Positions 6,343 to 20,349 are shown, counted from the first letter of the stretch. The stretch: 62,034 bases of DNA from a virus (IMGVR_UViG_3300042988_000114:1-62034); one strand, 5' to 3'. The notes: generated from the letters alone by a model not told the origin. Made by a program: numbers and translations.

Positions 6343-6416
6343 CTTATTTAGAAACACATTCGCTGGACCCATCCAAACCGTAAAATCTTTCAGGAACAAA
6401 TGTGCTTTCAAATAAG
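6343..6416 (-). repeat. Conserved-stem hairpin cassette A (divergent copy)
   Basis: cttatttagaaacacatt ... aatgtgctttcaaataag inverted arms. Confidence 0.6.
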
Positions 6417-6503
6417 TTGCTTCTACCGTTTGGGTTGCTGTGGACTTGCTACTATGATTTCACAAGCTACCCACTACCTATCCAACTTTAACCATCAAAG
6501 CAT

Positions 6504-6611
6504 ACTTATATGTAAACACACTGTAGTACATAACACCTTGCTGTCATGCTAACCTGGAATACGGCTCCAATTAAGTATACCGAAATAACATCAATGTGTT
6601 TGCATATAAGT
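6504..6611 (-). repeat. Conserved-stem hairpin cassette B
   Basis: acttatatgtaaacacactg ... caatgtgtttgcatataagt. Confidence 0.75.
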
Positions 6612-7455
6612 GGAGGACTGAGAATACATCTCTCCCAACAACACCTCGAGCATTATTACAAACCTTGCGAGTCTGCTTTCTCTCGACTTCCACTAAACCC
6701 ATATTGCTATGTAGCCTAGTCTGCTGTCAGCATCGCCGTTTTTAAAGCCAGGCAGTAGGCTTGTCGTCACATGCTATTCTATGCTTTCTATCCCGTTGAC
6801 CTTGCGAGCCATTAAGTCTTGCGAACTACGAAACTTCCTGCATAAACAGATTTCACCTTGCGAGTTACGTCTGACTAGATTCACTTGCGTGTCTAGTATT
6901 AGATGCTTTTCACATATGACCGAGTCAGTCTTTGCGTTTTAATGATAGTGAGAATCGAACCCACCGCATTCTGTTTAAGAGACAGATGTTCTACCAATGA
7001 ACTATATCAACCTACTGCGATGTGCTGACTCAGTTGCTGCGTAAAGTTTTGGCTCTACACAATACAACACACCACGTACCTTTCCTCTTGCGGAGTAATC
7101 AGTCGTCTTTCGCGACCAGCGTCTGCATTACTACAGCCACCACCCACTAAAACTGCATACGAGCTCTTAGGTGCAACCCTTCGAACCAATACACTACCCT
7201 TTCTCATACCAATTAACAAAGTTGGTTTCGCATAGAAGTCAGCACCACCTGTTACTTTCCATCTACTCAAGTTCCCCTTGATGCAATCTCAGGCTTGTAA
7301 GCAAACGTTCTTCCCTATGCACTTTGCGTCACTGTTACATCCACCCGTCGCTGAGTGAACGCTCCCTCACAGGAGTGAGCAGGCTTGTCTAAATGAACTA
7401 TTGCTAGCGGAGTTATGTAGGCATACCTCCTTTGGCTGTGTCACCACAGTTATTC
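6612..7455 (-). ncRNA. Probable GOLLD RNA (about 845 nt)
   Basis: No credible ORF; many GCAA tetraloop hairpins (CUCGCAAG near 6664, 6801, 6857); size, phage tRNA-cluster context and internal tRNA match the GOLLD class; boundaries approximate. Confidence 0.72.
6940..7011 (-). tRNA. tRNA-Lys(CTT)-like element inside the putative GOLLD RNA, no CCA
   Basis: Intact D arm, TCTGT-CTCTTAA-ACAGA anticodon arm, GGTTCGATTC T arm; frayed acceptor end. Confidence 0.8.
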
Positions 7456-7512
7456 TTCGCATCAAGCTGGGCGAACCATACTCTTTGCAGGACATTAAAC
7501 TGCCCTTTAATT

Positions 7513-7673
7513 CTTAACATTGCGAAACATACTGGTGGACTACCGCGTTACTCTACGCCAAATAGTAAACTTAATCCAACTGCGTCCAGTTGCGATCAAA
7601 TGCGTCTACTACTCCAGTTCGTTAGTCTGGCTGTGCATGAACTCAAAATCCAGTTCTGCTTCGCAATGTTAAG
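7513..7673 (-). ncRNA. Unknown rod-like RNA with a long terminal stem
   Basis: cttaacattgcgaaacatactgg / ccagttctgcttcgcaatgttaag arms; internal stems. Confidence 0.5.
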
Positions 7674-7676
7674 TAA

Positions 7677-7830
7677 GTTCTTATACAATTGCACACACGC
7701 AGGAATCGAAACCTGCTGCACTTATTTTAAGAAAGTGCATGTTGCCTTATAGCAAACAGTTTCGAACCTGCTTACTACTACATCAGCTCTGTTTTCGACG
7801 CAGAACCTCTGTGTGCATGTGTATAAGAAC
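7677..7830 (-). ncRNA. Unknown RNA with three T-loop-like hairpins
   Basis: Terminal stem gttcttatac..gcacac / gtgtgc..gtataagaac; UCGA loops inside. Confidence 0.5.
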
Positions 7831-7846
7831 TCTTATACGTTATCTA

Positions 7847-7920
7847 TTTTAAAGAACTCGGTTAGTTAGCACAATGTCTAACTAAGCTTCTATTGTAGCA
7901 AACATTTCATTTGCTGTCAA
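7847..7920 (-). promoter_or_regulatory. Sigma70 promoter followed by a boxB-like hairpin and boxA
   Basis: TTGACA-17-TACAAT with TG extension; TTAGTTAG/CTAACTAA hairpin; GTTCTTTAAAA. Confidence 0.75.
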
Positions 7921-7931
7921 CAGTTATTTAG

Positions 7932-8222
7932 AAATTTATTTTGATGCCTCTTTTTACCTGCTTACAAGGTTACGGGTAAGACTTGCGTCTTTCAGTTGAC
8001 CCTCATGCAACCAGTAGAGTGTTACTCTACCCTATTGCAATCCTGGTTCCTGCGTATTGCTACGTGGAACAGATCGTTTCTAACTCATAGGTGTTAGACG
8101 CCACTGTAGTCTCTTACAAACTACACAAGAGTGCCCAGCTTTCTATCTGGACCGGATTTTCGGCAAGAGTCACGCAACCTATTAGCGTGGTACGCCTGCT
8201 TACTTTACATCAAAACAAATTT
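7932..8222 (-). ncRNA. Unknown multi-hairpin RNA (about 290 nt)
   Basis: 15-bp closing stem aaatttattttgatg / catcaaaacaaattt; several hairpins; no ORF; directly after boxA. Confidence 0.6.
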
Positions 8223-8285
8223 TTAAAGAACGTTTGTTAATTGCTTAACATGTGTGTATTGTAACACATTTTTCTTTATTGTCAA
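8221..8285 (-). promoter_or_regulatory. Sigma70 promoter followed by a boxB-like hairpin and boxA
   Basis: TTGACA-16-TACAAT; GTTAA-GCAA-TTAAC hairpin; CGTTCTTTAAAA. Confidence 0.78.
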
Positions 8286-8304
8286 CTACTGTTGAAAATA
8301 AACT

Positions 8305-8389
8305 TGGTGCGGATGGTCGGACTCGAACCGACACGCCTTTCGGCGCTAGAACCTAAATCTAGTGCGGCTACCAATTACGCCACATCCGC
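8305..8389 (-). tRNA. tRNA-Leu(TAG)
   Basis: Long variable arm, loop TTTAGGT, CCA end. Confidence 0.95.
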
Positions 8390-8397
8390 TTAGATAA

Positions 8398-9564
8398 TTA
8401 CTTATCGTTTAAGCTAGTATTATATGCGAAGTTGATTTTACTGTCAACATGTTTTTGCATGATTTTAGTGAAATCTTCAAACTTCTCTGCTTTTGGAGCA
8501 CAGTAGCCGCATATGCATCTAACTTGCTTGCATTGTATAACAGGAACGGTATTCCCGTCAAGTAGTTTTTGTTGATCGTCTAGAATTTTTTTGGTGTTGC
8601 TTAGATTCCCAATTGGTCCTATGCCGCCTTCGAAGTTCATTTGACAATCTTTGTTTACGTAAACATCACCATTGTGCTGTCTAATGTATAAGAAGTACCA
8701 GTTTACGCTGCAATACCAATCTTTAAAATCCGCATGTGGCACAAAGCCCATTGGATGTTTTAAGTCTTGGTTAGTACACAATCCTCTGCCGCCGCAGCAG
8801 CTACGACCAATCTTGCCCATACCCACCGTATCATCTGTTACTTCTTTTAACATGATGATCTTGTTACGGCTCTTTTCGGGCGTCTTGCTTTCGTAATAGT
8901 CTGCAAAGAACTTGAACTGATCTTTATTGTATTGCCACTTAGGTGTAGGTGTGTCGTTGGCTTTAACTACATGCTTGATATCATGCTGTTTGCAAAACTC
9001 CACAGCTTGCATGCTTATATCCCACATTTGAGGATCGTTATGCATCACAAACACTACTTTTTGCTTCCTGCTGATGGACTTATTGTAGAGAATGTTGTCT
9101 AGCACTTGCTGGCGCTGCTTAGGCAGTGCTTCGCTGTGAAAACTAACTGTAAACTCATCTACGTGCTTAGTGACCTCGGTCCACAGATTTTTTCCTGCTA
9201 CACCGTTAGTGGTTACTGTAACTGTTAATGTCCAGTCATCCTTGAATGCTTCGTGGCGCTTTCTAAGCTCTTGCAGAATCTCTACAATGTTAGGATGATA
9301 GATAGCTTCGCCGCCATATAAATTTAGAACCACGATGCGTTGCCACTTAGGCTTGAGCATCATGTAACGGTGAACATAATCAAACATAAAGTCGATTGTG
9401 TTTAAGCATTCATCTAGCGGAGGGTGCGAGCTATGGTTATCATGCCACTGTGGTCCACAATAGCTGCAATCAAGATTACAGCGTAGAGTTAACTCCCAAT
9501 CCAACAGCAGAATTGGCCTATTAGATGGATCAATTGCTGGCTCAACGCTTACAATCTTATCCAT
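8398..9564 (-). CDS. Radical SAM protein with Cys-rich C-terminus
   Basis: CNLDCSYC, GGE, TTNG; C-terminal CxxxxCxCxxC. Confidence 0.88.
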   Translation of the reverse strand: MDKIVSVEPAIDPSNRPILLLDWELTLRCNLDCSYCGPQWHDNHSSHPPLDECLNTIDFMFDYVHRYMMLKPKWQRIVVLNLYGGEAIYHPNIVEILQELRKRHEAFKDDWTLTVTVTTNGVAGKNLWTEVTKHVDEFTVSFHSEALPKQRQQVLDNILYNKSISRKQKVVFVMHNDPQMWDISMQAVEFCKQHDIKHVVKANDTPTPKWQYNKDQFKFFADYYESKTPEKSRNKIIMLKEVTDDTVGMGKIGRSCCGGRGLCTNQDLKHPMGFVPHADFKDWYCSVNWYFLYIRQHNGDVYVNKDCQMNFEGGIGPIGNLSNTKKILDDQQKLLDGNTVPVIQCKQVRCICGYCAPKAEKFEDFTKIMQKHVDSKINFAYNTSLNDK

Positions 9565-10135
9565 ATACCATTACCAGTTGTTGTTCAAACCATTCTTTGC
9601 ATTCTGCAAAGGGTTTAGCAAATCGCAAGTTAAACCAAACTCGAGATCCTGTATTGTTGATGCCATGCATCTTTTGAATGTCCAGTAACCAACCTTCGTT
9701 AGCATTACTCGGATACACTTCTATGTAGTCTTGGTCCTTTACATAGGTAAGACTGTCTGTGGTGTTAATGAAATAGTTAAACCCAGTATTCTGGCCGGGT
9801 TGGTCTTTGTGCTCTGCACCATTGCCCACTAGTTTGTTCACGGACACTATGGTAGGCTCTAGCTCACTTAAACTTGCTAACATTAGCGGAAGAAAGGGCA
9901 TTGACTTTTCGATCAATGGGCCTGTCATATTATACCAGTAACTGCTACCGTTAGTAACGTGGCTAATTGTGCCAGCAGATCCTAGTTCGTAGTGGTATCC
10001 ATACTCACTATACTTGTATTGCTTTGTGATTTTATCACAGTTTGAGGTAACTAGACCAATGCCATGCTCTAATACTGCAATGGTATTTTTCCAATTATGA
10101 TCAATTCTGATCGGGGTTTTGTATGTTAGTAACAT
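9557..10135 (-). CDS. Hypothetical protein, possible cupin/oxygenase fold
   Basis: HKD...H..N...R pattern. Confidence 0.55.
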   Translation of the reverse strand: MLLTYKTPIRIDHNWKNTIAVLEHGIGLVTSNCDKITKQYKYSEYGYHYELGSAGTISHVTNGSSYWYNMTGPLIEKSMPFLPLMLASLSELEPTIVSVNKLVGNGAEHKDQPGQNTGFNYFINTTDSLTYVKDQDYIEVYPSNANEGWLLDIQKMHGINNTGSRVWFNLRFAKPFAECKEWFEQQLVMVYG

Positions 10136-10138
10136 GTA

Positions 10139-10419
10139 TCTATAAAGAGGTGGAGCATATAAAACTTATTTTTCAACCGTGGACTGATGCACGGCCGGTA
10201 GCTATCCGGCTCGCTTCGTAAGCTCAAACGGGTAATTGCCATGCCCTAACTTACACATCTTCTCAGAGTCTCAATAATTCGCGATTTTAAAATCCATTTG
10301 TTGCCTCGGAGGTTTCCGATATTTGATCACGGGCCACTATTCTCAGGCAAGAAAGATCGCTACTAAATCTACCACAGGTAATAAGTCACTGCCTTGTGTA
10401 TGCTCCACCTCTTTATAGA
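10139..10419 (-). ncRNA. Unknown 281-nt RNA bounded by a perfect 21-bp inverted repeat
   Basis: tctataaagaggtggagcata / tatgctccacctctttataga; own promoter; no ORF. Confidence 0.6.
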
Positions 10420-10433
10420 CAAATTGTTGAGTT

Positions 10434-10461
10434 ATTATAACAAAATTTGAATTTAAGTCAA
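10434..10461 (-). promoter_or_regulatory. Sigma70 promoter
   Basis: TTGACT-16-TATAAT with TG extension. Confidence 0.75.
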
Positions 10462-10468
10462 CTGGAAT

Positions 10469-11662
10469 TTACGTAGTTAGGTCCAGTAAGTGGAACAATG
10501 GAGTAGAATTCAGCTTTAATCCAAATCCATAAGTTCCTTCTACTAGGCTCATTGGGCTTACTCCACTTGTAAATTCTTTTGATCCATGGTAGAACGCTTT
10601 CCGCAATGAATCTAGCTCAGGGAGTTCATGCAGCCAAAAATACCAATCGCTTCGTTCTTTGTTCGGCTTCACAACTTGAAATTTATTATTATCCCACGTA
10701 TCTTTATACAACACTGAATTAAAAATTCGACGCTGAGCAGCATCATAGTGAGACTTGTTGTGATTATTAGTTAAAAACCAAATTGGGCTTTCTAATAAAG
10801 GTCTTGCTGCTTTGTTATGATTAAAATACAGTGCAATTTGATAAGCCTGCTCCACTGGCAACAGAGGCAGGTCCGCAGACCAATAAAATAGTTCAACTCT
10901 GTCCTCTCCCATTGCTTCAACCATGCTTGCATTAGTGTGAAAGCTGTCTAGGAACTTAAAGTATACCTTTCCATCAACTGCTGTAACATACGGTTTGTCA
11001 GTTCCAATTACATGACCAACTTTTCTACTTGTTGGCGATACCAACGATAACTTAGTCTCACAGTTGGGATCAAGACGAATAACCGTACTGCCCAGACTTA
11101 AGTGACCGATATTGATTTGGGACAATCTATTTGTAAGTTGATCCACTCCCAAGGACTGGTTTCCTAAATACTCTGCATAATCAACAATGTTGATTTTTAT
11201 TTCAGGATTGGATATTTTTAATCTATCAAGAGTTGGCTTAATGGAATAGTTCCATTCGCTTGCTGCATTCCTTGCAGAAGTATCCTTGGTGTTAGGAGTG
11301 TAACCATTTCCATCAATAAGATGTTTTGGCCAACGCACCATTACTTCGTCAAGTTTAATATTGTTTGTTAAAAACGTTTCCAATATGTTATGACTATCGG
11401 CGCCGCCCGAATAATGCAATACTACATAATCGTATTTGTCTCTAATTTGTAAAGCACGTTCCTTGTACAAAGTTGTTAGTGGGATTTTTCCCAACAACGA
11501 TTTGTCAAACTTTTCCCAAACTTGATTGTGAAAATAAAAAGAAACTGGGCCGGATCTGTTTGCATACGCATGTCGATATGCATCAATTTTTGCAGTGAAT
11601 GGCACTGAGTTAGAAACCCAACATCCATATTTACTACTGAGTGTTTTTGAGATATTAACCAT
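10469..11662 (-). CDS. PP-loop (adenine nucleotide alpha-hydrolase-like) protein, paralog 1
   Basis: YSGGADS, GTDKP, ELFYW. Confidence 0.7.
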   Translation of the reverse strand: MVNISKTLSSKYGCWVSNSVPFTAKIDAYRHAYANRSGPVSFYFHNQVWEKFDKSLLGKIPLTTLYKERALQIRDKYDYVVLHYSGGADSHNILETFLTNNIKLDEVMVRWPKHLIDGNGYTPNTKDTSARNAASEWNYSIKPTLDRLKISNPEIKINIVDYAEYLGNQSLGVDQLTNRLSQINIGHLSLGSTVIRLDPNCETKLSLVSPTSRKVGHVIGTDKPYVTAVDGKVYFKFLDSFHTNASMVEAMGEDRVELFYWSADLPLLPVEQAYQIALYFNHNKAARPLLESPIWFLTNNHNKSHYDAAQRRIFNSVLYKDTWDNNKFQVVKPNKERSDWYFWLHELPELDSLRKAFYHGSKEFTSGVSPMSLVEGTYGFGLKLNSTPLFHLLDLTT

Positions 11663-11689
11663 TAGTTGTTGACGTTAACACTATTTATA

Positions 11690-11763
11690 TGGTGCTCCTA
11701 CAAAGAATCGAACTTTGGATTACGCTATACCACAGCGTCGGTATGCCATTTACCTATAAGAGC
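11690..11763 (-). tRNA. tRNA-Thr(GGT)
   Basis: Cloverleaf, loop GTGGTAT, CCA end. Confidence 0.85.
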
Positions 11764-11764
11764 T

Positions 11765-11841
11765 TGGTGCCCCGGGCGAGACTCGAACTCGCAAAATTTG
11801 GATTTTGAATCCAACACGTATACCAATTCCGTCACCGGGGC
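11765..11841 (-). tRNA. tRNA-Leu(CAA), short variable arm
   Basis: Leu-type D arm, loop TTCAAAA, CCA end. Confidence 0.88.
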
Positions 11842-11845
11842 AGGA

Positions 11846-13244: not shown

Positions 13245-13365
13245 ACCATATAGAAGCACTCTCAAATGCAGGCCTAGGAGGAGTCAAGCTCTGAAACCGT
13301 TGCGTATGCATCCACTAAGGTCTCTTCTCCCGCTTTGACTTATGCCAAGAATACTTCTATATGAT
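13245..13365 (-). repeat. Conserved-stem hairpin cassette C
   Basis: accatatagaagcactct ... agaatacttctatatgat. Confidence 0.65.
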
Positions 13366-13508
13366 AGCGTTCGGTGGGACTCGAACCCACAGTCACAATT
13401 TTTCAATCGTGTAATTTCAACGGGTTTATCAATTTCTTGAGGAGGCGGTTTAAGAGTCCACCCTAGCCCGTCGCGTATACCAATTCCTGCTACGATAATT
13501 TCATCGCT
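13366..13508 (-). ncRNA. Leu-type tRNA-like RNA with an expanded anticodon arm
   Basis: D arm GCAGGAATTGGTATACGC, T arm GTGGGTTCGAGTCCCAC, about 42 nt in place of the anticodon loop. Confidence 0.55.
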
Positions 13509-13615
13509 ACCATATAGAAACACACTAACGAACCTGGCTGCGGGGATCGAACCCACTTAATTCCCGTAGCACCAGCAGTACTGCTACGATACTGGTTAAT
13601 GTGTTTGCATATGGC
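13509..13615 (-). repeat. Conserved-stem hairpin cassette D (loop contains a T arm)
   Basis: accatatagaaacacactaa ... ttaatgtgtttgcatatgg. Confidence 0.78.
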
Positions 13616-13710
13616 GGTGCATAAGTTAACCTAAAACTAGTCTAATATCGCGGCCGCAATATTTCATCTATGTCTTAGGATATACACGTTGGTACCTTGC
13701 GTACCTTACG

Positions 13711-13816
13711 CACCATATAAAAACACACTGACAACGTGCTCAGTTACGCTGCTCTTACTGCCGGCCGGACAGGGCGTTCGTCTATTGCTAGACTACCAAT
13801 GTGTTTTTATATGGTG
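13711..13816 (-). repeat. Conserved-stem hairpin cassette E
   Basis: caccatataaaaacacactg ... caatgtgtttttatatggtg. Confidence 0.8.
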
Positions 13817-13923
13817 ACAGTTTAGTCCGATAACTGTCAAAGAGTTGTTGTAGTTTGCTCTAGAAACAACATACATTTGGTCGTCATGACCGGGCACTCC
13901 ACGTTTGAGCCTTCTGGTTAGAT

Positions 13924-13999
13924 ACCATATAGAAGCACACTAACCATCATTGGTACTGTTTGCAACCAGTACGGATTTGAAAATGTGTTTCTATATAGG
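13924..13999 (-). repeat. Conserved-stem hairpin cassette F
   Basis: accatatagaagcacact ... aatgtgtttctatatagg. Confidence 0.72.
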
Positions 14000-14222
14000 C
14001 TCCACCGTTAACGACAGCATTCGTCCTGGCTTTATTTTATGTCGGTTAATGCACGGTGGACACACATGCCGACGGGGTTACAGTTTCAATGATGGGATTC
14101 GAACCCACTAACTACCCGTGCGATGCGGGTTGTGCTACGCTCGCCATACATTCAGTTTACTCCGTTACGTACCGGACCAATTGTATGACTTTGCACTATC
14201 TTTCCATGTCGTCTTCATTGTT

Positions 14223-14308
14223 ACCATATAAAAACATACTGCTGGCTATGCCCCTGGCGTCCCAGAAGCTATCAGAGTCTAACTGAATGCAATATGTTTT
14301 TATATGGT
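14223..14308 (-). repeat. Conserved-stem hairpin cassette G
   Basis: accatataaaaacatactgc ... gcaatatgtttttatatggt. Confidence 0.8.
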
Positions 14309-14400
14309 CGGTGCAGGTGAAATCGCATCACCGAGCCAAGTTATGTCTTTTGTACATTATGCACAGAACTCGCTGAGGCTTCCTCAGTACCTAGGATATG

Positions 14401-14484
14401 CACCATATGTAAACACACTATTAGTTTCTCCATCATCCGACTTTAAAATCAGCTGCGGTTTAAATAATGTGTTTGCATATGGTG
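14401..14484 (-). repeat. Conserved-stem hairpin cassette H
   Basis: caccatatgtaaacacactatt ... aataatgtgtttgcatatggtg. Confidence 0.8.
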
Positions 14485-14555
14485 GGACTGTTCGGGCTCG
14501 AACCGAAAACCTACCGGTTAAAAGCCGGTTGCTCTAACCATTGAGCTACAATCCC
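14480..14555 (-). tRNA. tRNA-Lys(TTT)
   Basis: Cloverleaf, loop CTTTTAA; CCA overlaps cassette H. Confidence 0.95.
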
Positions 14556-14632: not shown

Positions 14633-14716
14633 TTGGTGTATTAATTTTAGTTTAACGTGCCAACCTTAGACCAATACGGGATCTAAAGTTGACACTAACG
14701 TTTACCACGTTTCATG

Positions 14717-14848: not shown

Positions 14849-14857
14849 TGCCTGCTC

Positions 14858-15340
14858 CTACATGTTTCTAAATTGAATTGTACGCCAGGCTTCAGGATCG
14901 GGTTGTTCATTCTCATCGTATGTCCAACCTAGTGCCTTCATCATCTTGTGCTTAACACGCAAGTTAGGTATACGTGTACGTTCAGTATCACTGAACCCCA
15001 TCATGATTCCAACTTCTGCTACTGCACCACTGCGACATAAGCCAGCCATACAGTGTACTACAACATTCATTTTATTGTCAAGTGCATGTTGAAGTAGTTT
15101 CACTATTTCATTTGCTTGTTCGTCTGTAATTTTAGCTTCGTCCGGAAACCCATCTTTATCTTCGGCATCTAAAAACTCGAAACGATGTGCTTCCTTAAAA
15201 GTGTGTGCAGGTGTTGGCCACCAACTCGGACACGGATCCATAATTTGAATCAACATAGAATTGTCCCCAGCATCGTGATGCAATTTCATTGGTACATCGG
15301 CCGCTGCTACGTTTTCAATCCAAGGCATTTTATTCTCCAT
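14858..15340 (-). CDS. Protein tyrosine/dual-specificity phosphatase-like protein
   Basis: HCMAGLCRS (HCx5R). Confidence 0.82.
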   Translation of the reverse strand: MENKMPWIENVAAADVPMKLHHDAGDNSMLIQIMDPCPSWWPTPAHTFKEAHRFEFLDAEDKDGFPDEAKITDEQANEIVKLLQHALDNKMNVVVHCMAGLCRSGAVAEVGIMMGFSDTERTRIPNLRVKHKMMKALGWTYDENEQPDPEAWRTIQFRNM

Positions 15341-15380
15341 TCTGCATTATAACATCGATTCTATTATAACGCAAGAGTAT

Positions 15381-15457
15381 TGGTCGGTCCTGAGGGACTC
15401 GAACCCCCAACCTACGATTTCGAAGACCGGAACTCTATCCAGTTGAGCTAAGGACCG
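15381..15457 (-). tRNA. tRNA-Arg(TCG)
   Basis: Cloverleaf, loop CTTCGAA, CCA end. Confidence 0.9.
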
Positions 15458-15572
15458 AGGTGAAGGTTTTAATGGTGCCGGGATTACCTTCAACCCCGTG
15501 TACACAGCCCATCCCACGTTTCGTGTACAGCGGACGCTGATATCTTCTCTTGCGAGTTAGTGGGTCAGCGGA

Positions 15573-16172
15573 TTACATTGGTGCAGGGCCATTACCGTAA
15601 ACTTCATCACGGCTTTTCATGCCAACTGTACCACCTTCTGCTTCGATACGTTTGATAACGTCTTCAAACAAGATAGGAGTAAAGTTAGTGTGCTCTACAC
15701 ATACACAATGGTATCGTGGATCGATAATTTCACCACCGTAGCCATTTGATTTCATTACACGACGATCATGTAAGTGACCGTGAATGTTAACACCAAAGCG
15801 ACCTAACGACGATTCATGTAAAGGGATATGACTCAAGATCATTCCGTTCAATACATGATACCCACGCACATCACGAAAGTGTTCGGTATATTCCTCTAAG
15901 CGAAAAATATCGTGGTTGCCTTTGATTAACACCTTGTCGCCATTTAGGCGGCGCATGATGCCTAATGCTTTACGGTTAATAACAACGTCACCTAAGTGAT
16001 ATACTTTGTCATTTGGGCGCACTGTGTCATTCCAACGGCGCACCATTTCTTCGTCCATTTCGTCAGGATTGTCCCACGGACGCAATTTTACGTTAGGGTC
16101 ATCTTTACTCATAAACTTGCAGACACCCATGTGCCCGAAGTGAGTATCACTGACTAAAAAACTTGCCGGCAT
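15573..16172 (-). CDS. Calcineurin-like metallophosphoesterase
   Basis: SDTHFGH, LGD, GNHD, HGHLH. Confidence 0.9.
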   Translation of the reverse strand: MPASFLVSDTHFGHMGVCKFMSKDDPNVKLRPWDNPDEMDEEMVRRWNDTVRPNDKVYHLGDVVINRKALGIMRRLNGDKVLIKGNHDIFRLEEYTEHFRDVRGYHVLNGMILSHIPLHESSLGRFGVNIHGHLHDRRVMKSNGYGGEIIDPRYHCVCVEHTNFTPILFEDVIKRIEAEGGTVGMKSRDEVYGNGPAPM

Positions 16173-16252
16173 TACAGCCTCCTTATTACTCTATAAAGTA
16201 CATACATTATAACACCAATTACAATTAAAGCCATTGCATGTACTCCCAATTT

Positions 16253-16329
16253 TGGTGCCCTGGGAGAGACTCGAACTCTCAGCTTACGGCTTCTTAGACC
16301 GCTGCGTTTACCAATTTCGCCACCGGGGC
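16253..16329 (-). tRNA. tRNA-Leu(AAG), short variable arm
   Basis: Leu-type D arm, loop CTAAGAA, CCA end. Confidence 0.85.
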
Positions 16330-16344
16330 CTGATAAATAAACTT

Positions 16345-16899
16345 ATGAACTACGATAAATTCCGCCAACTCTTAAGTCTGTTTGAAGCCCGCAATCCTGA
16401 TCTTGAATACCAGGAAACCGAGAAGCAAGTTATTGCTATCCTTAGAGGATCTAACAGCCAAGTATTCACCAAGCTAGCACAAAAAGTTGAACGCATTAGT
16501 CAACTTGAAGCAGAACTAAAAATCCTCAAAGAAGAAGTTAAGCAAAGCACTAGAGACGATGTAGCTGCATTGTTTAATGCAGAAGATGGCGCTAAAACTC
16601 GTATTATTCAAACTCTAAGTTTTATCTTGCAACTAAGCAAAGATCCAGAAGAAACTAAATCTCCAAAGTACAAGGACATCCTTGCTGTACTCGAAACCAA
16701 GTTAACTCCAGAGCTAATCAAAGTTCTTGAAGAGCTTAAAAAGACTATGGTTACTGTTACACAAAAAGAAGCAGGTCTTAAAATCAAGCCACTCGACGAA
16801 GGACAAGACGCAATGCTGTTCAATCGTTTAAACGAGTTAGTTCAAGACTGGGGTCAACGTTATGACCAAAAGCTAAACGCATTAATGCAACAGGTATAA
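16345..16899 (+). CDS. Coiled-coil hypothetical protein, possibly head-internal
   Basis: Start MNYDKFRQLLSLFE just after TAAATA. Confidence 0.7.
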   Translation: MNYDKFRQLLSLFEARNPDLEYQETEKQVIAILRGSNSQVFTKLAQKVERISQLEAELKILKEEVKQSTRDDVAALFNAEDGAKTRIIQTLSFILQLSKDPEETKSPKYKDILAVLETKLTPELIKVLEELKKTMVTVTQKEAGLKIKPLDEGQDAMLFNRLNELVQDWGQRYDQKLNALMQQV

Positions 16900-16901
16900 T
16901 C

Positions 16902-17321
16902 ATGAAGATCAAACCATTAAAAGAATATATCCGCGAAGCAGAAGTTGCGGATCGCCCACCAGAACTAGCAAAGCCTCCTGTGGGGCAGCAACAAGAAAAG
17001 CCAGCCGATAAACCAGGTGGTTTTACTGTTATGATTCTTAACGATGGTATGACGCCAGCTGAAGTAGTTATTGAAGCTATTGTTAGCGTAACTGGAATGA
17101 GCTCAGACGCTGCATTCACTAAAATGATGCGAGCACACCAAGGCGGATGGGCGCCAATTAAATCATATGCCAGCAAAGACGTTGCCGAGACTATTGCACA
17201 TGGCATTATGCGTCATGCACAACAAAATGATCGCTACGATCATTATCGTCAACACCCACACTTCCGTAACTTTAGAGGCCCCTGGCCTCTTACTGCTGAA
17301 GTAATGGATGCTGCTCAGTAA
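16902..17321 (+). CDS. clpS: ClpS-like adaptor protein
   Basis: VMILNDGMTP...MMRAHQGG...KDVAE...WPL follows the ClpS pattern. Confidence 0.75.
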   Translation: MKIKPLKEYIREAEVADRPPELAKPPVGQQQEKPADKPGGFTVMILNDGMTPAEVVIEAIVSVTGMSSDAAFTKMMRAHQGGWAPIKSYASKDVAETIAHGIMRHAQQNDRYDHYRQHPHFRNFRGPWPLTAEVMDAAQ

Positions 17322-17323
17322 TT

Positions 17324-17397
17324 TGGGGTGAAGCCGGGAATCGAACCCTGGTCCCTTGTTTCACAGACAAGTATTCTACCACTGAACTAGCGACACC
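17324..17397 (-). tRNA. tRNA-His(GTG)
   Basis: Loop CTGTGAA, G-1:C73, CCA end. Confidence 0.9.
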
Positions 17398-17658
17398 ATA
17401 ACGGCACTAAGGGCTTTCCTCTCAAGCGTGTGCCACACATATAACAGTAAACTATTTCTCATCTGTTATACATCCCAGTTGACTGCTGGTTCAGTGAAAA
17501 TAGTTTTGAGCTAATGCGATGGGATTCGAACCCAACCATCCCGCCCGGTTTCGCTAGTTACTTGCCCTGCAAGGCTTTCCCTAGGTACTCGGGGCCGGTA
17601 TGCCAGCCAGTACATCTCACAACCTGTCGTTCAGTCTTGCAGGACCTCCCGAGCAGTC

Positions 17659-18087
17659 TCAAAAGTCTTCTGTGATTTGACGTAGATCTTCTATGTTTTC
17701 TACGCTGCCGTCTTCGTTATATTTCACTGATCCGCCGTAGTATCCATTGTGGCTATTACGCACTTCAATGTCAATGTACCCACGATCAGTTTTGATAGTC
17801 CAGAACGCATCCTGGACCACTTCGTATCCTTCTTCTTCGTGATCCTCACCCCAACCTTTGTCTTCAACACCGGTTACTAGTGCCCCACGTAATAGATCAA
17901 AGCTGTTGCCTTCACCCAAGATAGTAACGCCGTTAATGTGGTTGAACCACACGCTGTTGCAGCAATCATTTTCGGTATCATAGCGATGAAACTTACCATC
18001 GATGGTTCTAACCACCAACGCCCAGCTATCATTACCCAGGAAAATACCGTTAATACGTTGTCCAACTAAATTTTTAAAAACGCTCAT
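17659..18087 (-). CDS. Hypothetical phage protein
   Basis: DCC and NSHNGYYGG motifs; AGGAG RBS. Confidence 0.75.
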   Translation of the reverse strand: MSVFKNLVGQRINGIFLGNDSWALVVRTIDGKFHRYDTENDCCNSVWFNHINGVTILGEGNSFDLLRGALVTGVEDKGWGEDHEEEGYEVVQDAFWTIKTDRGYIDIEVRNSHNGYYGGSVKYNEDGSVENIEDLRQITEDF

Positions 18088-18302
18088 TGCTGCTCCTTTG
18101 CGTTATTATACTGCTTTATTCTTTTTGAGTTGTTGTACAACTCCAGATTGTAGTCAAGTAATTCCCCTGGAATCGATTCACTTGTACACACGTTACAGAC
18201 GTTCTTTTTAAAGCCTTTAACATATGGGCCTGTTTCGGTCCGAAAGGTGTAGGTAACTACTTTAGTATCCTCAGACCCACAATATGCACATGAATGTTTC
18301 AT
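18084..18302 (-). CDS. Zinc-ribbon protein
   Basis: CAYC...CNVC. Confidence 0.65.
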   Translation of the reverse strand: MKHSCAYCGSEDTKVVTYTFRTETGPYVKGFKKNVCNVCTSESIPGELLDYNLELYNNSKRIKQYNNAKEQQ

Positions 18303-18313
18303 AAAGTCCTTAA

Positions 18314-18390
18314 TGGTATCTCTGGCAGGAGTCGAACCTGCTACCCCTAAGTTCGTAGCCTAGTGCTCTATCCAGATGAGCTACAGAGAT
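18314..18390 (-). tRNA. tRNA-Arg(ACG)
   Basis: Cloverleaf, loop CTACGAA, CCA end. Confidence 0.95.
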
Positions 18391-18402
18391 AAATATTTTA
18401 CT

Positions 18403-18945
18403 ATGACACAACTATTCACCGAAACCGCAAGACACCATTCAAACAGCATAAGTCGTGCTAATCCAAATTGGCGCAACGACTCAGTTTACGCTTTCTATAA
18501 AAGCGACGGAGAAGTGCTAACTTTAGCTGAGTTAGTAAATAGTTTAAACCCGCAATCTGTTCTTGATTTTGGGTGCGGCAACGGGTTGGCATTACCTTCA
18601 ATTGCAGGAGTTAATGCAAAAGGGTACGATCCATTTGTAGACGAATTTTCTACTTGGGAACCTGCTGTGTATGATTTAATAGTGTCGCATTTTGCAATTT
18701 TGCACGTCGAAGATCAATTCTTCAGCGACACAATTAAAATGTTACGTAATGCATGTGGTAAAAATTTTGTTGCCACGTTTGCTCTTACTAAACATATACC
18801 ACATCGCGATACTGAATGGTATATTAATCATCTTAAATCCCACTTTACCATTGACGACCAATACACTAGTGCGCCAATAGAATGGACTGATTCCAACAAT
18901 GTTACTACTACAAAGCAAATAGTAACCATATGGTGTTCAGTTTAA
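18403..18945 (+). CDS. Class I SAM-dependent methyltransferase
   Basis: VLDFGCGNG, GYDP. Confidence 0.8.
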   Translation: MTQLFTETARHHSNSISRANPNWRNDSVYAFYKSDGEVLTLAELVNSLNPQSVLDFGCGNGLALPSIAGVNAKGYDPFVDEFSTWEPAVYDLIVSHFAILHVEDQFFSDTIKMLRNACGKNFVATFALTKHIPHRDTEWYINHLKSHFTIDDQYTSAPIEWTDSNNVTTTKQIVTIWCSV

Positions 18946-18950
18946 GTTAT

Positions 18951-19027
18951 TGGTCCGTGTGACACGATTCGAACATGCGACCACCTGGTCCCAAACCAGG
19001 AGCTCTACCAGGCTGAGCTACACACGG
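18951..19027 (-). tRNA. tRNA-Pro(TGG)
   Basis: Cloverleaf, loop TTTGGGA, CCA end. Confidence 0.95.
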
Positions 19028-19034
19028 ATAATTT

Positions 19035-19110
19035 TGGTGGAGGTAAGGAGGATCGAACTCCTGACCTTTAGCTTGCAAAGCTACTGCTCTCCCAGCTGAG
19101 CTATACCCCC
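19035..19110 (-). tRNA. tRNA-Ala(TGC)
   Basis: G3:U70, loop TTTGCAA, CCA end. Confidence 0.95.
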
Positions 19111-19117
19111 ACTATGC

Positions 19118-19192
19118 TGGTGCCCCAGGATGGAATCGAACCACCACACCCTGCTTACAAAACAGGACCTCTACCACTAAGGATACAAGGGC
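19118..19192 (-). tRNA. tRNA-Thr(TGT)
   Basis: Cloverleaf, loop TTTGTAA, CCA end. Confidence 0.92.
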
Positions 19193-19279
19193 AAAATTCT
19201 TCCAACTGTGACCTTACGCTCTCTCCGTTGGCGATTGAGCAGCCGACATTCTTAAAGTCATCTCGGAACTGACTTAAAT

Positions 19280-19355
19280 TGGCTCCCCAGCGTGGGATCG
19301 AACCACGGACACCTTGATTAACAGTCAAGTGCAACTACCGCTGTGCTACTGGGGA
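19280..19355 (-). tRNA. tRNA-Asn(GTT)
   Basis: Cloverleaf, loop CTGTTAA, CCA end. Confidence 0.95.
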
Positions 19356-19363
19356 ATGATACA

Positions 19364-19392
19364 ATTATATATGACAAACATTACCTTGTCAA
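19364..19392 (-). promoter_or_regulatory. Consensus sigma70 promoter
   Basis: TTGACA-17-TATAAT directly upstream of tRNA-Asn. Confidence 0.85.
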
Positions 19393-19399
19393 TAAATTT

Positions 19400-19474
19400 T
19401 GGTAGCCATGGACAATTTCGAAATGTCGACCTAACGCTTATCAAGCGTTTGCTCTTCCTCTGAGCTACACGGCT
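19400..19474 (-). tRNA. tRNA-Ile(GAT)
   Basis: Cloverleaf, loop TTGATAA, CCA end. Confidence 0.92.
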
Positions 19475-19644
19475 AAAAATAAATACAGTATGAGTAAACC
19501 CAATCCAGGATTTGAAGAATTACAACAGCTCGGTTACGGAACATACCGCAACACTGTGAGCCATTCGTGCATCAAAGATTTCACTCTTACATATGCTAAA
19601 AAGACTAACGAGCTTTTTGTCCCCGACGGTCTTCCTAAACAAAT

Positions 19645-19722
19645 TGGCAGGGGTAATCGGATTCGAACCGATGATACTAATTTCAAAGACTAGTGCTTTA
19701 GGCCAGACTAAGCTATACCCCA
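19645..19722 (-). tRNA. tRNA-Gln(TTG)
   Basis: Cloverleaf, loop CTTTGAA, CCA end. Confidence 0.92.
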
Positions 19723-19736
19723 ACAAAAATTAACCT

Positions 19737-19811
19737 TGGTACTGAGTACGGGAATCGAACCCGTCTTTGCGACTTGAAAGGCCACCGTCCTTACCGATAG
19801 ACGAACCCAGT
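19737..19811 (-). tRNA. tRNA-Glu(TTC)
   Basis: Cloverleaf, loop CTTTCAA, CCA end. Confidence 0.93.
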
Positions 19812-19819
19812 ACAAAAAT

Positions 19820-19895
19820 TGGCGCCTCGTAGGGGTTTCGATCCCCTTACCTCTACAGTGACAGTGTAGTGCTCTCCCGATTGAGCTAACGAAGC
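19820..19895 (-). tRNA. tRNA-Asp(GTC)
   Basis: Cloverleaf, loop CTGTCAC, CCA end. Confidence 0.92.
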
Positions 19896-20162
19896 ATATA
19901 AAAGCAATAGCGTTACTGCAAACAGAATGAACTGAGTGGCTCGCACTATCGCGGATGTTTGTGTTAAGTTGTTTGCCGCACAACCATAACAAAGCGGGGG
20001 TCTGTGTTTGTCAACAATTTATCTCATTATACGCCGCTGACAAGGGCGAGGCTCAGTAGCAGCATTAAACAATACTGCAAAATTTGTGGAAGTTCCGATA
20101 GCACCCATCGTCACTTACAACCGTTGAGTAACCATGCATCAAAACAAGATTACTATTTGCTC

Positions 20163-20248
20163 TGGTGGAGGCGACTGGAGTTGAACCAGTAGTGTCATAA
20201 GACGGCGGATTTACAGTCCACTGGGGTTACCAATTTTCCTACACCTCC
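20163..20248 (-). tRNA. tRNA-Tyr(GTA)
   Basis: Long variable arm, loop CTGTAAA, CCA end. Confidence 0.93.
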
Positions 20249-20257
20249 AAAAACTTT

Positions 20258-20349
20258 ACCATATGTAAACACACTGAGCAAACAGCTCCTATTACAGAGT
20301 CAGTTGCTTCGTCCTTTTACAGACTTTTACTAATGTGTTTGCATATGGT
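20258..20349 (-). repeat. Conserved-stem hairpin cassette I
   Basis: accatatgtaaacacactg ... taatgtgtttgcatatggt. Confidence 0.8.

What the first reader, a model, noticed from the sequence alone, without database searches (positions are those of the whole stretch)
6343..20349. At least 9 conserved-stem, variable-loop RNA cassettes that donate CCA ends
Seen: copies at 6343, 6504, 13245, 13509, 13711, 13924, 14223, 14401 and 20258, six of them in 1.25 kb. Minus-strand consensus is ACCAUAURNAAACACAUU-[about 40-85 nt unrelated loop]-AGUGUGUUUNYAUAUGGU. One position is a U-G wobble on the minus strand and a C-A mismatch on the plus strand, and copy G has a compensatory change, so selection appears to act on minus-strand RNA. 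The leading CCA is also the 3' end of the upstream unit (tRNA-Lys 14480; odd RNAs ending at 14305, 13812, 13612, 20346). Inference: a processing stem (RNase III-like) or protein-binding handle that releases a library of small RNAs, guides or decoys.
Basis: partly seen in the sequence, partly recalled or inferred. Interest (0 to 1): 0.82.

Follow-up and report, generated by a model that had tools for sequence, protein, structure and literature searches.

The report
Conserved spacer hairpins in phage tRNA islands
A big freshwater phage places a near-identical 20-base-pair hairpin with a freely varying loop right after its lysine tRNA, its GOLLD RNA and several tRNA-like RNAs; the same undescribed element recurs in over a hundred uncultured phages and is swapped between them like a cassette.

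Summary
They are not chance: 14 arm matches against 0.86 expected.

The window is 62 kb of a T4-like myovirus with 34 tRNAs and a GOLLD RNA. The element is widespread and phage-specific: 107 of 125 IMG/VR loci fetched by one arm hold a full hairpin, all inside tRNA islands. It matches no Rfam family and was found in no cultured phage.

Across 137 copies its orientation relative to the tRNAs never flips. Pairing covaries, and position 8 is usually an A·C mismatch. It follows tRNA-Lys(UUU) in 54 of 65 cases and GOLLD directly in 6 of 7.

Loops are replaced wholesale: identical loops sit between unrelated flanks, and unrelated loops between identical flanks. The arms are near-invariant in phages whose terminase is only 34-35% identical.

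"Donates CCA" is not supported, because 767 of 794 tRNAs without a hairpin also encode CCA.

Best reading (0.45): a transcribed spacer and 3'-end processing hairpin, read by sequence and shuffled by recombination. Cleavage, any partner and any loop function are untested.

The parts
14399..14486 (-). Hairpin directly after tRNA-Lys(UUU). 5' arm 14483-14466, 3' arm 14419-14402. C·A at position 8, U·G at position 16.
   Evidence: 52.9 bits; z -6.2
14220..14311 (-). Hairpin after the tRNA-like unit 14305-14405. Fully paired stem, with C-G changed to U-A at position 14.
   Evidence: 56 bits; z -8.2. Its loop occurs behind GOLLD in an RNA contig of a relative.
13921..14002 (-). Hairpin after the 223-nt unit 14000-14222.
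   Evidence: 42 bits; z -5.0
13709..13818 (-). Hairpin after unit 13812-13926.
   Evidence: 51.3 bits; z -5.8
13506..13618 (-). Hairpin after the tRNA-like unit 13612-13714. Its loop carries a T-arm-like element, and the same loop family occurs in L002 and L004 between unrelated flanks.
   Evidence: (45.7 bits)
13245..13366 (-). Degenerate hairpin after the tRNA-like unit 13363-13511.
   Evidence: I11, 84% complementary; E 0.74 only; z -3.0
20255..20352 (-). Solitary hairpin after the 143-nt tRNA-like unit 20346-20488 and 10 nt before tRNA-Tyr.
   Evidence: (46.9 bits)
6502..6613 (-). Hairpin directly after GOLLD. The stem starts after the CCA (CCA-CUUAUAU...), and the outer pairs have changed from C-G to U-A.
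   Evidence: (38.9 bits)
6340..6419 (-). Diverged hairpin (CUUAUUUGAAAGCACAUU / AAUGUGUUUCUAAAUAAG).
   Evidence: 30.7 bits; z -2.8
21764..21848 (-). Tenth, diverged copy not in the finding (GGUAUUCACAAACAAACUAG / CUAGUUUGUUUAUGAAUACC), with C·A at the same position before AAAC.
   Evidence: I7; E 0.002; z -5.1
14480..14555 (-). tRNA-Lys(UUU). Its CCA forms stem positions 1-3. It is preceded by tRNA-Lys(CUU) 14559-14632.
6615..7075 (-). GOLLD RNA (3' domain, Rfam RF02032) with a nested tRNA-Lys(CUU) at 6940-7011. It is the upstream unit of hairpin 6502-6613.
   Evidence: (207 bits, gathering score 150)
14305..14405 (-). tRNA-like unit: 7-bp terminal stem, T-arm-like hairpin and an ACCA tail. 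Its first bases are the UGG of the preceding 3' arm.
   Evidence: z -1.9. ARAGORN and Rfam call no tRNA here.
13612..13714 (-). Structured unit with a 10-bp terminal stem and a GCCA tail.
   Evidence: z -4.8
13363..13511 (-). tRNA-like unit with a T-arm (GUGGGUUCGAGUCCCAC) and a long insertion.
   Evidence: weak tmRNA 3'-end hit
20346..20488 (-). 143-nt tRNA-like unit: acceptor-like stem GUGGUAA/UUACUAC, T-arm and ACCA tail.
   Evidence: z -2.1
14000..14222 (-). 223-nt non-coding unit between two hairpins, conserved in L052, L095 and L004.

Best explanation
The cassettes belong to a phage-specific family of transcribed spacer hairpins. Each fills the gap behind a stable RNA gene that ends in CCA: above all tRNA-Lys(UUU), but also tRNA-Gln, tRNA-Glu, GOLLD RNA and tRNA-like RNAs.

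In the precursor RNA a helix of about 20 bp forms. Its outer pairs include the CCA of the upstream RNA, and often the first GG of the next tRNA. Position 8 carries a conserved A·C-type non-Watson-Crick pair. The apical part may be almost any sequence from 4 to about 200 nt.

I infer that the helix acts as punctuation and a 3'-end module. RNase P cutting at the next tRNA leaves the hairpin on the upstream RNA. A double-strand-specific or sequence-specific nuclease (host RNase III is the simplest candidate) followed by exonucleases then frees the CCA end. For GOLLD the hairpin may instead stay on as a protective 3' cap.

The arms are nearly the same in very different phages, so they also serve as short homology for recombination. 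That exchanges loops and shuffles RNA-gene modules.

Shown here: anatomy, fixed polarity, covariation, presence in RNA libraries, distribution and cassette exchange. Inferred: cleavage, the enzyme, and whether the loops do anything.
For: 1. Structure. 92.5% of cells pair over 19 pairs in 30 homologues. Five pairs show double changes, and 0 of 500 shuffles reach the observed values. In 137 copies position 7 is A-U 106, G-C 16, U-A 9. Outer-stem variants such as CUAUUCUA/UAGAAUAG and CCAUAGAU/UUCUAUGG stay complementary.

2. Polarity. With copies oriented by the tRNA strand, position 16 is U·G 92, C-G 29, U-A 16 and C·A 0. Position 14 is C-G 119, U·G 15, U-A 3. The position-8 mismatches are only A·C 78, C·A 12, U·U 7 and C·C 6, never purine-purine. 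A flipped copy was never seen.

3. Placement. 95 of 139 hairpins share their CCA with an ARAGORN tRNA. In 34 of 139 the next tRNA starts at the GG of the 3' arm. GOLLD is followed directly by a hairpin in 6 of 7 cases.

4. tRNA bias. Hairpins follow Lys(UUU) in 54 of 65 cases, Gln(UUG) in 14 of 42 and Glu(UUC) in 6 of 37, against for example Met in 1 of 71. The 60 distinct Lys(UUU) genes have a median pairwise identity of only 0.64.

5. RNA. A 477-nt contig in three metatranscriptome runs (word depth 2859, 1494, 3378) bridges the GOLLD 3' end, a hairpin and tRNA-Cys. Contigs over the protein-coding stretch 8335-13003 have depth 0-11 in the same runs.

6. Helix length. The helix is mostly paired from -1 to +18: 79 of 137 copies pair at position -1 and 114 of 137 at position 18. 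About 20 bp is the size of a minimal RNase III substrate (recalled).

7. Sequence constraint. The arms are near-invariant in phages whose terminase is 57, 79/68 (a gene in two pieces), 34, 35 and 35% identical to the window's.

8. Copy number. Only 1-4 copies occur per large phage record, four of the five at least 90% complete, and always in one region. That is unlike a proliferating transposon.
Against: - No cleavage site, product or partner was seen. The RNA data are contigs, so they show no ends, no strand and no reliable level.
- The bridging contig shows that unprocessed precursor, or a hairpin still attached, is abundant.
- A plain RNase III stem should drift through compensatory change. 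The near-invariant arm sequence and the conserved mismatch need a sequence-reading partner that I could not name. None of 5 phage records encodes RNase III, and none of 5 records (the window's own contig plus four of those phages) encodes Ro/TROVE or RtcB.
- The other strand would fold about as well: G·U at position 8, C·A at position 16. Thermodynamics therefore does not pick the strand.
- Wholesale loop replacement and identical loops between unrelated flanks are what a mobile DNA element would give.
- 88% of tRNA junctions in the same islands (659 of 749) do without the hairpin, so it is not needed for tRNA processing in general.
- Ascertainment: the loci were fetched with an exact arm pattern, so part of the arm conservation is by construction. 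Only positions 7, 8 and 16, and the extra copies found with relaxed patterns, are free of this bias.
Confidence: 0.45

Rival explanations
1. It is a selfish palindromic mobile DNA element, MITE-like or Correia-like. It inserts into or replaces the short AT-rich spacers behind tRNA genes and spreads between co-infecting phages. The RNA hairpin is a tolerated by-product.
For: - Terminal inverted repeats enclose unrelated internal sequence: 136 loops fall into 108 clusters.
- 28 pairs of copies share a loop at 80-100% identity yet have unrelated flanks. 4 pairs have flanks at least 90% identical and unrelated loops.
- Two filled-versus-empty junctions were found: Lys to His in L100 against L039, and Gln to Arg in L067 against L079.
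- In the Gln to Arg pair a TA sits on both sides of the insert. 56 of 137 copies have UA...UA flanks.
- The arms are conserved across phages with 34-35% terminase identity, as horizontal spread would give.
- An RNA contig of a relative shows a chimeric hairpin, with the 6502-type arm joined to the 14220-type loop.
Against: - Orientation relative to transcription never flips (position 16: 92 U·G, 0 C·A).
- Only 1-4 copies occur per large record (four of five at least 90% complete), all in the tRNA island.
- No transposase was seen in the window.
- The TA flank is part of the palindrome, coincides with tRNA positions 72-73, and is present in only 41% of copies.
- The Lys to His empty site does not fit a clean insertion.
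- Compensatory changes keep the stem paired, and the position-8 mismatch is kept even where the outer stem has changed.
- The tight link to tRNA-Lys(UUU) holds across genes of median 64% identity.
Confidence: 0.25
2. The conserved stem is a handle for an unknown protein or nuclease. The variable loops are the payload: small RNAs excised from the tRNA precursor that act as sponges, decoys or guides, possibly in the conflict over tRNA-Lys, tRNA-Gln and tRNA-Glu.
For: - The stem sequence and the A·C pair are constant while the loops are hypervariable and exchanged.
- Some loops are themselves structured. The loop family L052/L060/L116 and the family window 13506/L002/L004 differ by changes that keep the inner helices paired (read off the listings).
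- 8 of 136 loops hold a T-arm-like element, against 0.1 in shuffles.
- 74 of 95 abutting tRNAs are Lys(UUU), Gln(UUG) or Glu(UUC). These are the 2-thio-U34 tRNAs that known anticodon nucleases attack (recalled).
- tRNA spacers acting as sRNA sponges are known in E. coli (3'ETS-leuZ, recalled).
Against: - The window loops have no above-chance complementarity within the 62 kb.
- Loops can be as short as 4 nt, so a payload is not obligatory.
- No common motif links the loops.
- Position 8 does not track the upstream tRNA.
- No candidate binding protein was found: none of 5 records (the window contig and four large phage records) encodes Ro/TROVE or RtcB.
Confidence: 0.15
3. Its selected role is at the DNA level. 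It is a conserved linker that gives short homology for recombination, so that tRNA and ncRNA modules can be exchanged between T4-like phages, as proposed for PeSL motifs.
For: - tRNA order differs in every locus while the Lys(UUU)+hairpin module recurs.
- Crossovers map to the arms.
- The phage encodes UvsX, UvsY and gp32-like recombination proteins.
- PeSLs show that repeated conserved motifs mediate such shuffling in T4-like phages (PMC4122927: abstract, introduction and first results read).
Against: - 659 of 749 tRNA junctions carry no hairpin, although the gene order is shuffled anyway.
- A recombination linker needs neither a hairpin, nor fixed polarity, nor a conserved mismatch.
- 17-20 bp is short for efficient homologous recombination (recalled).
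Confidence: 0.1

Closest known systems
RNase III processing stems between stable RNAs or cistrons (rRNA operon stems, T7 early R sites, the first cut in the T4 tRNA cluster precursor; all recalled, not read here)
   Same: A long helix of about 20 bp with an internal non-Watson-Crick position. It lies between functional RNAs of one transcript and brings the 3' end of one unit next to the 5' end of the following one.
   Different: The arms are conserved as sequence across phages with 34-35% terminase identity. The apical part is freely replaceable. The CCA itself is in the stem. There is a strong preference for one tRNA species. Cleavage has not been shown.
PeSL promoter-terminator cassettes of T4-like phages (PMC4122927: abstract, introduction and first results read; PMC2839356: search listing only)
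   Same: A short conserved repeated motif in the plastic regions of T4-like genomes, at the borders of insertions, deletions and replacements between related phages.
   Different: PeSLs combine an early promoter with a terminator stem-loop and flank ORFs. The hairpins here hold no promoter, and only 1 of 10 looks like a terminator. They flank RNA genes and have a long stem with a variable loop.
Miniature inverted-repeat elements that are transcribed and cut by RNase III, such as the Correia/NEMIS elements of Neisseria (recalled)
   Same: Terminal inverted repeats, a size of 60-160 bp, presence/absence polymorphism, and hairpin formation in RNA.
   Different: Here the internal sequences are unrelated between copies. 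Orientation is fixed. There are 1-4 copies per genome, confined to tRNA islands. There is no clear target duplication.
Functional tRNA spacer RNAs (3'ETS-leuZ and ITS sponges of E. coli; recalled)
   Same: An RNA piece excised from between or behind tRNAs of a polycistronic precursor could have a role of its own.
   Different: Those spacers are single-copy, host-encoded, lack a conserved long stem, and have defined sRNA partners. No partner is known here.
Integron attC sites (recalled)
   Same: Imperfect inverted repeats with conserved ends and a variable centre, one per cassette, in fixed orientation, folding as a hairpin on one strand.
   Different: The arms contain no GTTRRRY/RYYYAAC core. 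No integrase was seen in the window. The cassettes are RNA genes inside a lytic phage.
Y RNA / YrlA modules (Rfam RF02553)
   Same: A long terminal stem combined, in a few copies, with a tRNA-like module in the loop.
   Different: The only YrlA hit is weak and lies on ordinary tRNAs at 18971-19090. No Ro/TROVE gene was found in 5 records. The stem sequence is different.

Membership tests
Any Rfam 15 family | Covariance-model match at the hairpin coordinates | tested here: not met
   A cmscan of 4000-26000 at E up to 1 gives only tRNAs, GOLLD and weak tRNA look-alikes. Nothing falls on any hairpin.
RNase III processing stem | Double-stranded helix of about two turns between functional RNAs of one transcript | tested here: met
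   The stem is mostly paired from position -1 to +18: 79 of 137 copies pair at position -1, 114 of 137 at position 18, and 92.5% of cells pair over the 19 modelled pairs. It abuts a tRNA in 95 of 139 copies and follows GOLLD directly in 6 of 7.
RNase III processing stem | Staggered cleavage in the stem by RNase III | not testable with these tools
   Only assembled contigs of RNA runs were available, so no ends could be read. None of 5 phage records encodes RNase III, so a host enzyme would be required.
MITE / Correia-like element | Terminal inverted repeats and presence/absence at otherwise identical sites | tested here: met
   Arms. Two filled-versus-empty junction pairs.
MITE / Correia-like element | Target-site duplication | tested here: inconclusive
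   UA on both sides in 56 of 137 copies, but it is part of the palindrome and of the tRNA end. One empty site fits a TA duplication and one does not.
MITE / Correia-like element | Copies share internal sequence and insert in either orientation | tested here: not met
   108 loop clusters among 136 loops. No flipped copy among the 137 copies scored (position 16 is U·G in 92 and never C·A).
PeSL | Composite of an early promoter and a terminator stem-loop | tested here: not met
   No strong promoter match lies in any hairpin; the only match inside one is a weak 9-of-12 site in the loop of 6502-6613. Only 1 of 10 hairpins is terminator-like.
PeSL | Sits at the borders of replacements between related T4-like phages | tested here: met
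Integron attC | R''/R' core sites (RYYYAAC / GTTRRRY) and an IntI integrase | tested here: not met
   The arms, read, contain no such core. No integrase appears among the 26 ORFs scanned against Pfam and the 42 scanned against PHROGs (overlapping sets). The window is only 18% of the genome.
Y RNA / YrlA | Ro-binding stem with an rsr (TROVE) gene in the genome | tested here: not met
   No YrlA match on any hairpin. TROVE found in 0 of 5 records.
GOLLD RNA (neighbour, not the hairpin itself) | Rfam RF02032 match above the gathering score | tested here: met
   6615-7075 minus strand, 207 bits against a gathering score of 150. The hairpin lies outside the model.

The most novel reading that the evidence does not exclude
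The invariant stem with its A·C pair is a docking handle for a still unknown host or phage factor, and the exchangeable loops are a population-wide library of small effector RNAs. They would be released from the precursors of exactly those tRNAs (Lys-UUU, Gln-UUG, Glu-UUC) and of GOLLD that are contested between phages and tRNA-cleaving host defences. On this reading it is an RNA counter-defence cassette system that phages trade by recombination.
Probability: 0.12. Interest if true: 0.9.

Novelty: new variant of a known kind. Interest (0 to 1): 0.68.

Why it matters
Phage tRNA islands and the giant GOLLD RNA are common, yet their expression and function are poorly understood. This element has a defined structure and is strongly conserved. 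It marks the 3' side of tRNA-Lys(UUU), of GOLLD and of several tRNA-like RNAs in many uncultured freshwater phages.

It offers three things. It is a concrete handle for asking how these RNAs are cut out and stabilised. It is a marker for finding related RNA genes that tRNA finders miss. It is also a clear case of cassette-like exchange of non-coding sequence between very different T4-like phages.

If the stem has a dedicated partner, or if the loops are functional, it would add a new layer to the phage-host conflict over tRNAs.

Tried and rejected
- Codon idea: position 8 plus AA might spell the codon of the upstream tRNA (AAA, CAA, GAA). Rejected, because the position-8 variants are spread alike over Lys, Gln and Glu.
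- Loops as self-targeting guides: blastn-short of the ten window loops against the window gave best hits of 18-24 bits, no better than shuffled loops at 21-26 bits. An earlier script for the same question timed out.
- Loops as anticodon-loop decoys: one window loop contains UUUUAA, but the other loops read do not. Dropped.
- Promoter or terminator role.
- Cultured phages: two blastn searches of 50,697 phage records with hairpin-bearing queries found only the tRNA part. BLAST's low-complexity filter may hide AT-rich arms, so absence is not proven. Campylobacter phage CP39 has a different hairpin that shares the AAACACA core.
- Cellular genomes: the arm pattern gave 120 loci, of which the 80 rows shown carried single arms at about chance level. 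Both arms were present only on two MAG contigs, L135 and L197. L135 repeats the module Lys(CUU)-Lys(UUU)-hairpin.
- Phage-encoded partner: RNase III in 0 of 5 large phage records; TROVE and RtcB each in 0 of 5 records, the window contig plus four of those phages.
- Literature: five searches and passages of the GOLLD cryo-EM preprint and of the 224-motif paper mention no such hairpin. Supplements were not opened and could hold motif drawings that bear on this.
- Parts of the 20 kb without RNA contig cover are not evidence of silence.

Full report
SETTING

The window is the whole 62,034-base contig, rated about 18% of a genome. It is a T4-like myovirus. It encodes a T4-type large terminase, tail sheath and tube proteins, and UvsX, UvsY and gp32-like proteins. 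All 34 tRNA genes lie on the minus strand between 5064 and 25214. Rfam finds a GOLLD RNA at 6615-7075 on the minus strand (207 bits against a gathering score of 150) with a tRNA-Lys(CUU) nested inside it. Nothing in Rfam matches any hairpin. Strong sigma-70-type promoters on the minus strand, for example at 8285, 7920, 19392 and 22424, drive this non-coding region.

The arm pattern occurs 14 times with up to 3 mismatches, against 0.86 expected, and 0 of 100 shuffles reach that number. The arms pair up as inverted repeats.

I built a covariance model from 30 homologues in other phages. It adds a tenth copy at 21764-21848 (E 0.002). Every copy scores higher on the minus strand. All ten fold into long hairpins, with z-scores from -2.8 to -8.2.

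The stem begins at the CCA of tRNA-Lys(UUU) 14480-14555. The units before the hairpins at 14305, 13612, 13363 and 20346 fold with a terminal stem. Three of them (not 13612) also have a T-arm-like hairpin, and three (not 13363) end in an NCCA tail. These are tRNA-like RNAs that ARAGORN and Rfam do not call. The unit ending at 13812 shows only a 3' mini-helix plus ACCA.

One point of the finding needs correction. In three window copies position 8 of the stem (numbered from the first C of the CCA) is C·A on the minus strand and G·U on the plus strand.

THE ELEMENT IS WIDESPREAD AND PHAGE-SPECIFIC

Of these, 107 hold a complete hairpin. The 18 that do not hold no tRNA either, and look like chance single arms. 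The sources carry 951 ARAGORN tRNAs, always on one strand per locus.

The same pattern in 596 Gb of prokaryote genomes gave 120 loci. Among the 80 rows shown, both arms were present on only two MAG contigs. One of them repeats the module Lys(CUU)-Lys(UUU)-hairpin.

Two BLAST searches of 50,697 phage records found no cultured phage with the hairpin. The low-complexity filter makes this a weak negative. In five large records, four of them rated at least 90% complete, the model finds 1, 1, 1, 2 and 4 copies, always in one region. The window's ten copies are therefore unusual.

Terminase identity between the window and those five phages is 57%, 79/68% (a gene in two pieces), 34%, 35% and 35%. The arms are thus kept almost letter for letter across very distant T4-like phages.

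ANATOMY ACROSS HOMOLOGUES

A relaxed search (up to 2 substitutions per arm) found 154 hairpins. I dropped 4 in loci without tRNAs, and also exact duplicates, which left 139. Of these, 137 had flanks long enough to score. All were oriented by the tRNA strand.

- Position 7: A-U 106, G-C 16, U-A 9, G·U 3.
- Position 14: C-G 119, U·G 15, U-A 3.
- Position 16: U·G 92, C-G 29, U-A 16, and never C·A.
- Position 8: a mismatch in 103 of 137 copies (A·C 78, C·A 12, U·U 7, C·C 6), paired in 34, and never purine-purine.
- Pairing extends to the discriminator base (A-U in 96) and to position 18 (114 of 137 paired), giving a helix of about 20 bp.

A core-only search shows outer-stem variants that stay complementary: CCAUAUUG/CAAUAUGG, CUAUUCUA/UAGAAUAG, CCAUAGAU/UUCUAUGG and CUUAUAUAA/CUAUAUAAG. 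On the 30-sequence alignment 92.5% of cells pair, five pairs show changes on both sides, and 0 of 500 shuffles reach the observed values.

The polarity result matters most. A palindromic DNA element inserting at random would show the flipped form about half the time, and it was never seen.

Caveat: positions fixed in the search pattern are conserved by construction. Only positions 7, 8 and 16 and the relaxed or core-only copies are free of that bias.

WHERE IT SITS

In 95 of 139 hairpins, stem positions 1-3 are the CCA of an ARAGORN tRNA. One more is offset by one base, two lie 4 and 7 nt away, and 41 have no called tRNA directly upstream. In 34 of 139 the next tRNA begins at the GG of the 3' arm. 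Five more begin right after it, 25 within 2-11 nt, and 74 are further away.

The upstream tRNA is Lys(UUU) in 54 cases, out of 65 such genes in these sources. It is Gln(UUG) in 14 of 42 and Glu(UUC) in 6 of 37. Together these are 74 of the 95 abutting tRNAs. For comparison, Met is upstream in 1 of 71 and Ile(GAU) in 1 of 38. A second count with slightly different de-duplication gives 56 of 65 for Lys.

The 60 distinct Lys(UUU) genes have a median pairwise identity of 0.64. tRNA order differs from locus to locus, while the Lys(UUU)+hairpin module recurs with different downstream neighbours. GOLLD, found in 7 sources, is followed directly by a family hairpin in 6. In the seventh a tRNA intervenes. 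In these GOLLD copies the stem starts after the CCA and the outer stem has changed, but the A·C pair at position 8 is kept.

The hairpin does not supply the CCA: 767 of 794 tRNAs without a hairpin encode it too. Only 90 of 749 tRNA-tRNA junctions carry the arm motif. Some other junctions carry unrelated long hairpins built on the same logic. An example is CCAUUUGUUUUGCUGACG...CGUCAGCAAAACAAAUGG behind tRNA-Glu in L018 and L059.

THE LOOPS

Loop length runs from 4 to 197 nt, with a median of 50. The 136 loops of at least 20 nt fall into 108 clusters at 70% identity, 84 of them singletons.

- 28 pairs of copies share a loop at 80-100% identity, yet at least one flank is below 60% identity. Examples with identical loops are L019/L117, L020/L074, L060/L100 and L068/L069.
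- 4 pairs have both flanks at least 90% identical and loops below 50% (L021/L079, L027/L045, L039/L100, L059/L074).
- Two junctions are empty in one phage and filled in a relative.
- L019 and L117 have identical loops, but their stems differ at position 7 by a double change, U-A against A-U.

Eight of 136 loops hold a T-arm-like element, against 0.1 in shuffles. Two small loop families show changes that keep inner helices paired (listings). The window loops have no above-chance match elsewhere in the window.

RNA EVIDENCE

Four freshwater metatranscriptome runs, held as assembled contigs, were laid on 5000-24999 at 90% likeness. Contigs cover the GOLLD region and several of the non-coding stretches.

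One 477-nt contig is present in three runs, at word depth 2859, 1494 and 3378. It joins 6767-6592 (the GOLLD 3' end and the 5' arm) to 14289-14232 (the loop of the hairpin at 14223-14308), and then to 6250 (just before tRNA-Cys). In a relative, therefore, GOLLD, a hairpin and tRNA-Cys are contiguous in RNA, and that hairpin combines the arm of one window copy with the loop of another. Contigs over the protein-coding stretch 8335-13003 have depth 0-11 in the same runs, so DNA carry-over is an unlikely source.

Contigs give no ends, strand or reliable level, so nothing can be said about cleavage.

INTERPRETATION

The data show a helix under selection, with fixed polarity relative to transcription, placed precisely between stable RNAs that end in CCA, and present in RNA. 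That is what a transcribed punctuation or 3'-end module looks like.

RNase P cutting at the next tRNA would leave the hairpin on the upstream RNA. An about 20-bp helix is a natural RNase III substrate (recalled). None of 5 phage records encodes RNase III, and none of 5 records (the window contig plus four of those phages) encodes Ro/TROVE or RtcB. A host enzyme or an unrecognised phage protein would therefore be needed.

The near-invariant arm sequence and the conserved A·C pair go beyond what a generic double-strand nuclease requires. They point to a partner that reads sequence, or to homogenisation by frequent gene conversion and horizontal spread.

The loop data show beyond reasonable doubt that the hairpins are exchanged as cassettes with break points in the arms. 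The phage's UvsX, UvsY and gp32 machinery could do this, and PeSL motifs are the known precedent in T4-like phages (PMC4122927: abstract, introduction and first results read). The hairpins are not PeSLs, however, because they hold no promoter and only 1 of 10 looks like a terminator.

A pure MITE reading fails on orientation, copy number, unrelated interiors and the lack of a clean target duplication. It remains the main rival (0.25). The reading of loops as payload stays open (0.15), and the DNA-linker reading is less likely (0.10). I put the processing-module reading at 0.45.

NOVELTY

There is no Rfam family for it. Five literature searches turned up no paper describing it, and the passages read from the GOLLD cryo-EM preprint and the 224-motif paper do not mention it. 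Supplements were not opened.

The kind of thing, a spacer or processing hairpin that is also a recombinogenic repeat, is known. What appears new is this particular combination:
- a stem conserved as sequence with a fixed A·C pair;
- a CCA inside the helix;
- a free, exchangeable loop;
- linkage to tRNA-Lys(UUU) and to GOLLD;
- spread across distant phages.

Noticed in passing
window 6615-7075 (-), extending upstream to about 7500: A GOLLD RNA (RF02032, 207 bits) with a nested tRNA-Lys(CUU) at 6940-7011. The stretch 7076-7500 upstream is conserved in six other loci that also hold GOLLD, so it is probably the variable 5' domain. RNA-library contigs lie on it at very high word depth.
   Followed up: partly
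window 14305-14405, 13612-13714, 13363-13511, 20346-20488 (-): Four tRNA-like RNAs of about 100-150 nt. Each has a terminal stem; three (not 13612-13714) have a T-arm-like hairpin and three (not 13363-13511) an NCCA tail. They have non-standard cores or large insertions, and neither ARAGORN nor Rfam calls them.
   Followed up: partly
window 14000-14222 (-): A 223-nt non-coding unit between two hairpins. It is conserved at 81-95% in L052, L095 and L004, contains a T-arm-like GUGGGUUCGAAUCCCAU, and matches no Rfam family.
   Followed up: partly
window 7513-7673 and 7676-7831 (-): Two further long hairpins with different stems (17 and 22 bp). The second encloses two T-arm-like elements. RNA contigs of relatives skip 7511-7674.
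   Followed up: no
window 21101-21611 and 21846-22000 (-): Non-coding stretches conserved in five and four other phage loci respectively. There is also a weak tRNA-Sec-like hit at 20932-21019 (E 0.0013) that may be an uncalled long-arm tRNA.
   Followed up: no
L018 and L059 (tRNA-Glu to tRNA-Lys spacer); L126 (Campylobacter phage CP39, 460-515): Unrelated hairpin families built on the same logic: the CCA at the foot of a long stem, closed by UGG just before the next tRNA. CP39 has a hairpin behind a tRNA that shares the AAACACA/UGUGUUU core.
   Followed up: partly
window 8398-9564, 11846-13057, 27710-28648, 4460-5059, 58234-59871 (-): Three radical-SAM proteins and a protein matching phrog_274 (named DNA endonuclease V) with a weak 2OG-Fe(II) oxygenase hit lie in or beside the tRNA island. 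A tryptophan halogenase homologue (E 3e-111) lies near the end of the window.
   Followed up: no
L001 271-468; G002 216548-219569: A group I intron (RF00028, 56.9 bits) in a related tRNA island. In one related phage the large terminase gene is in two pieces about 1.4 kb apart.
   Followed up: no
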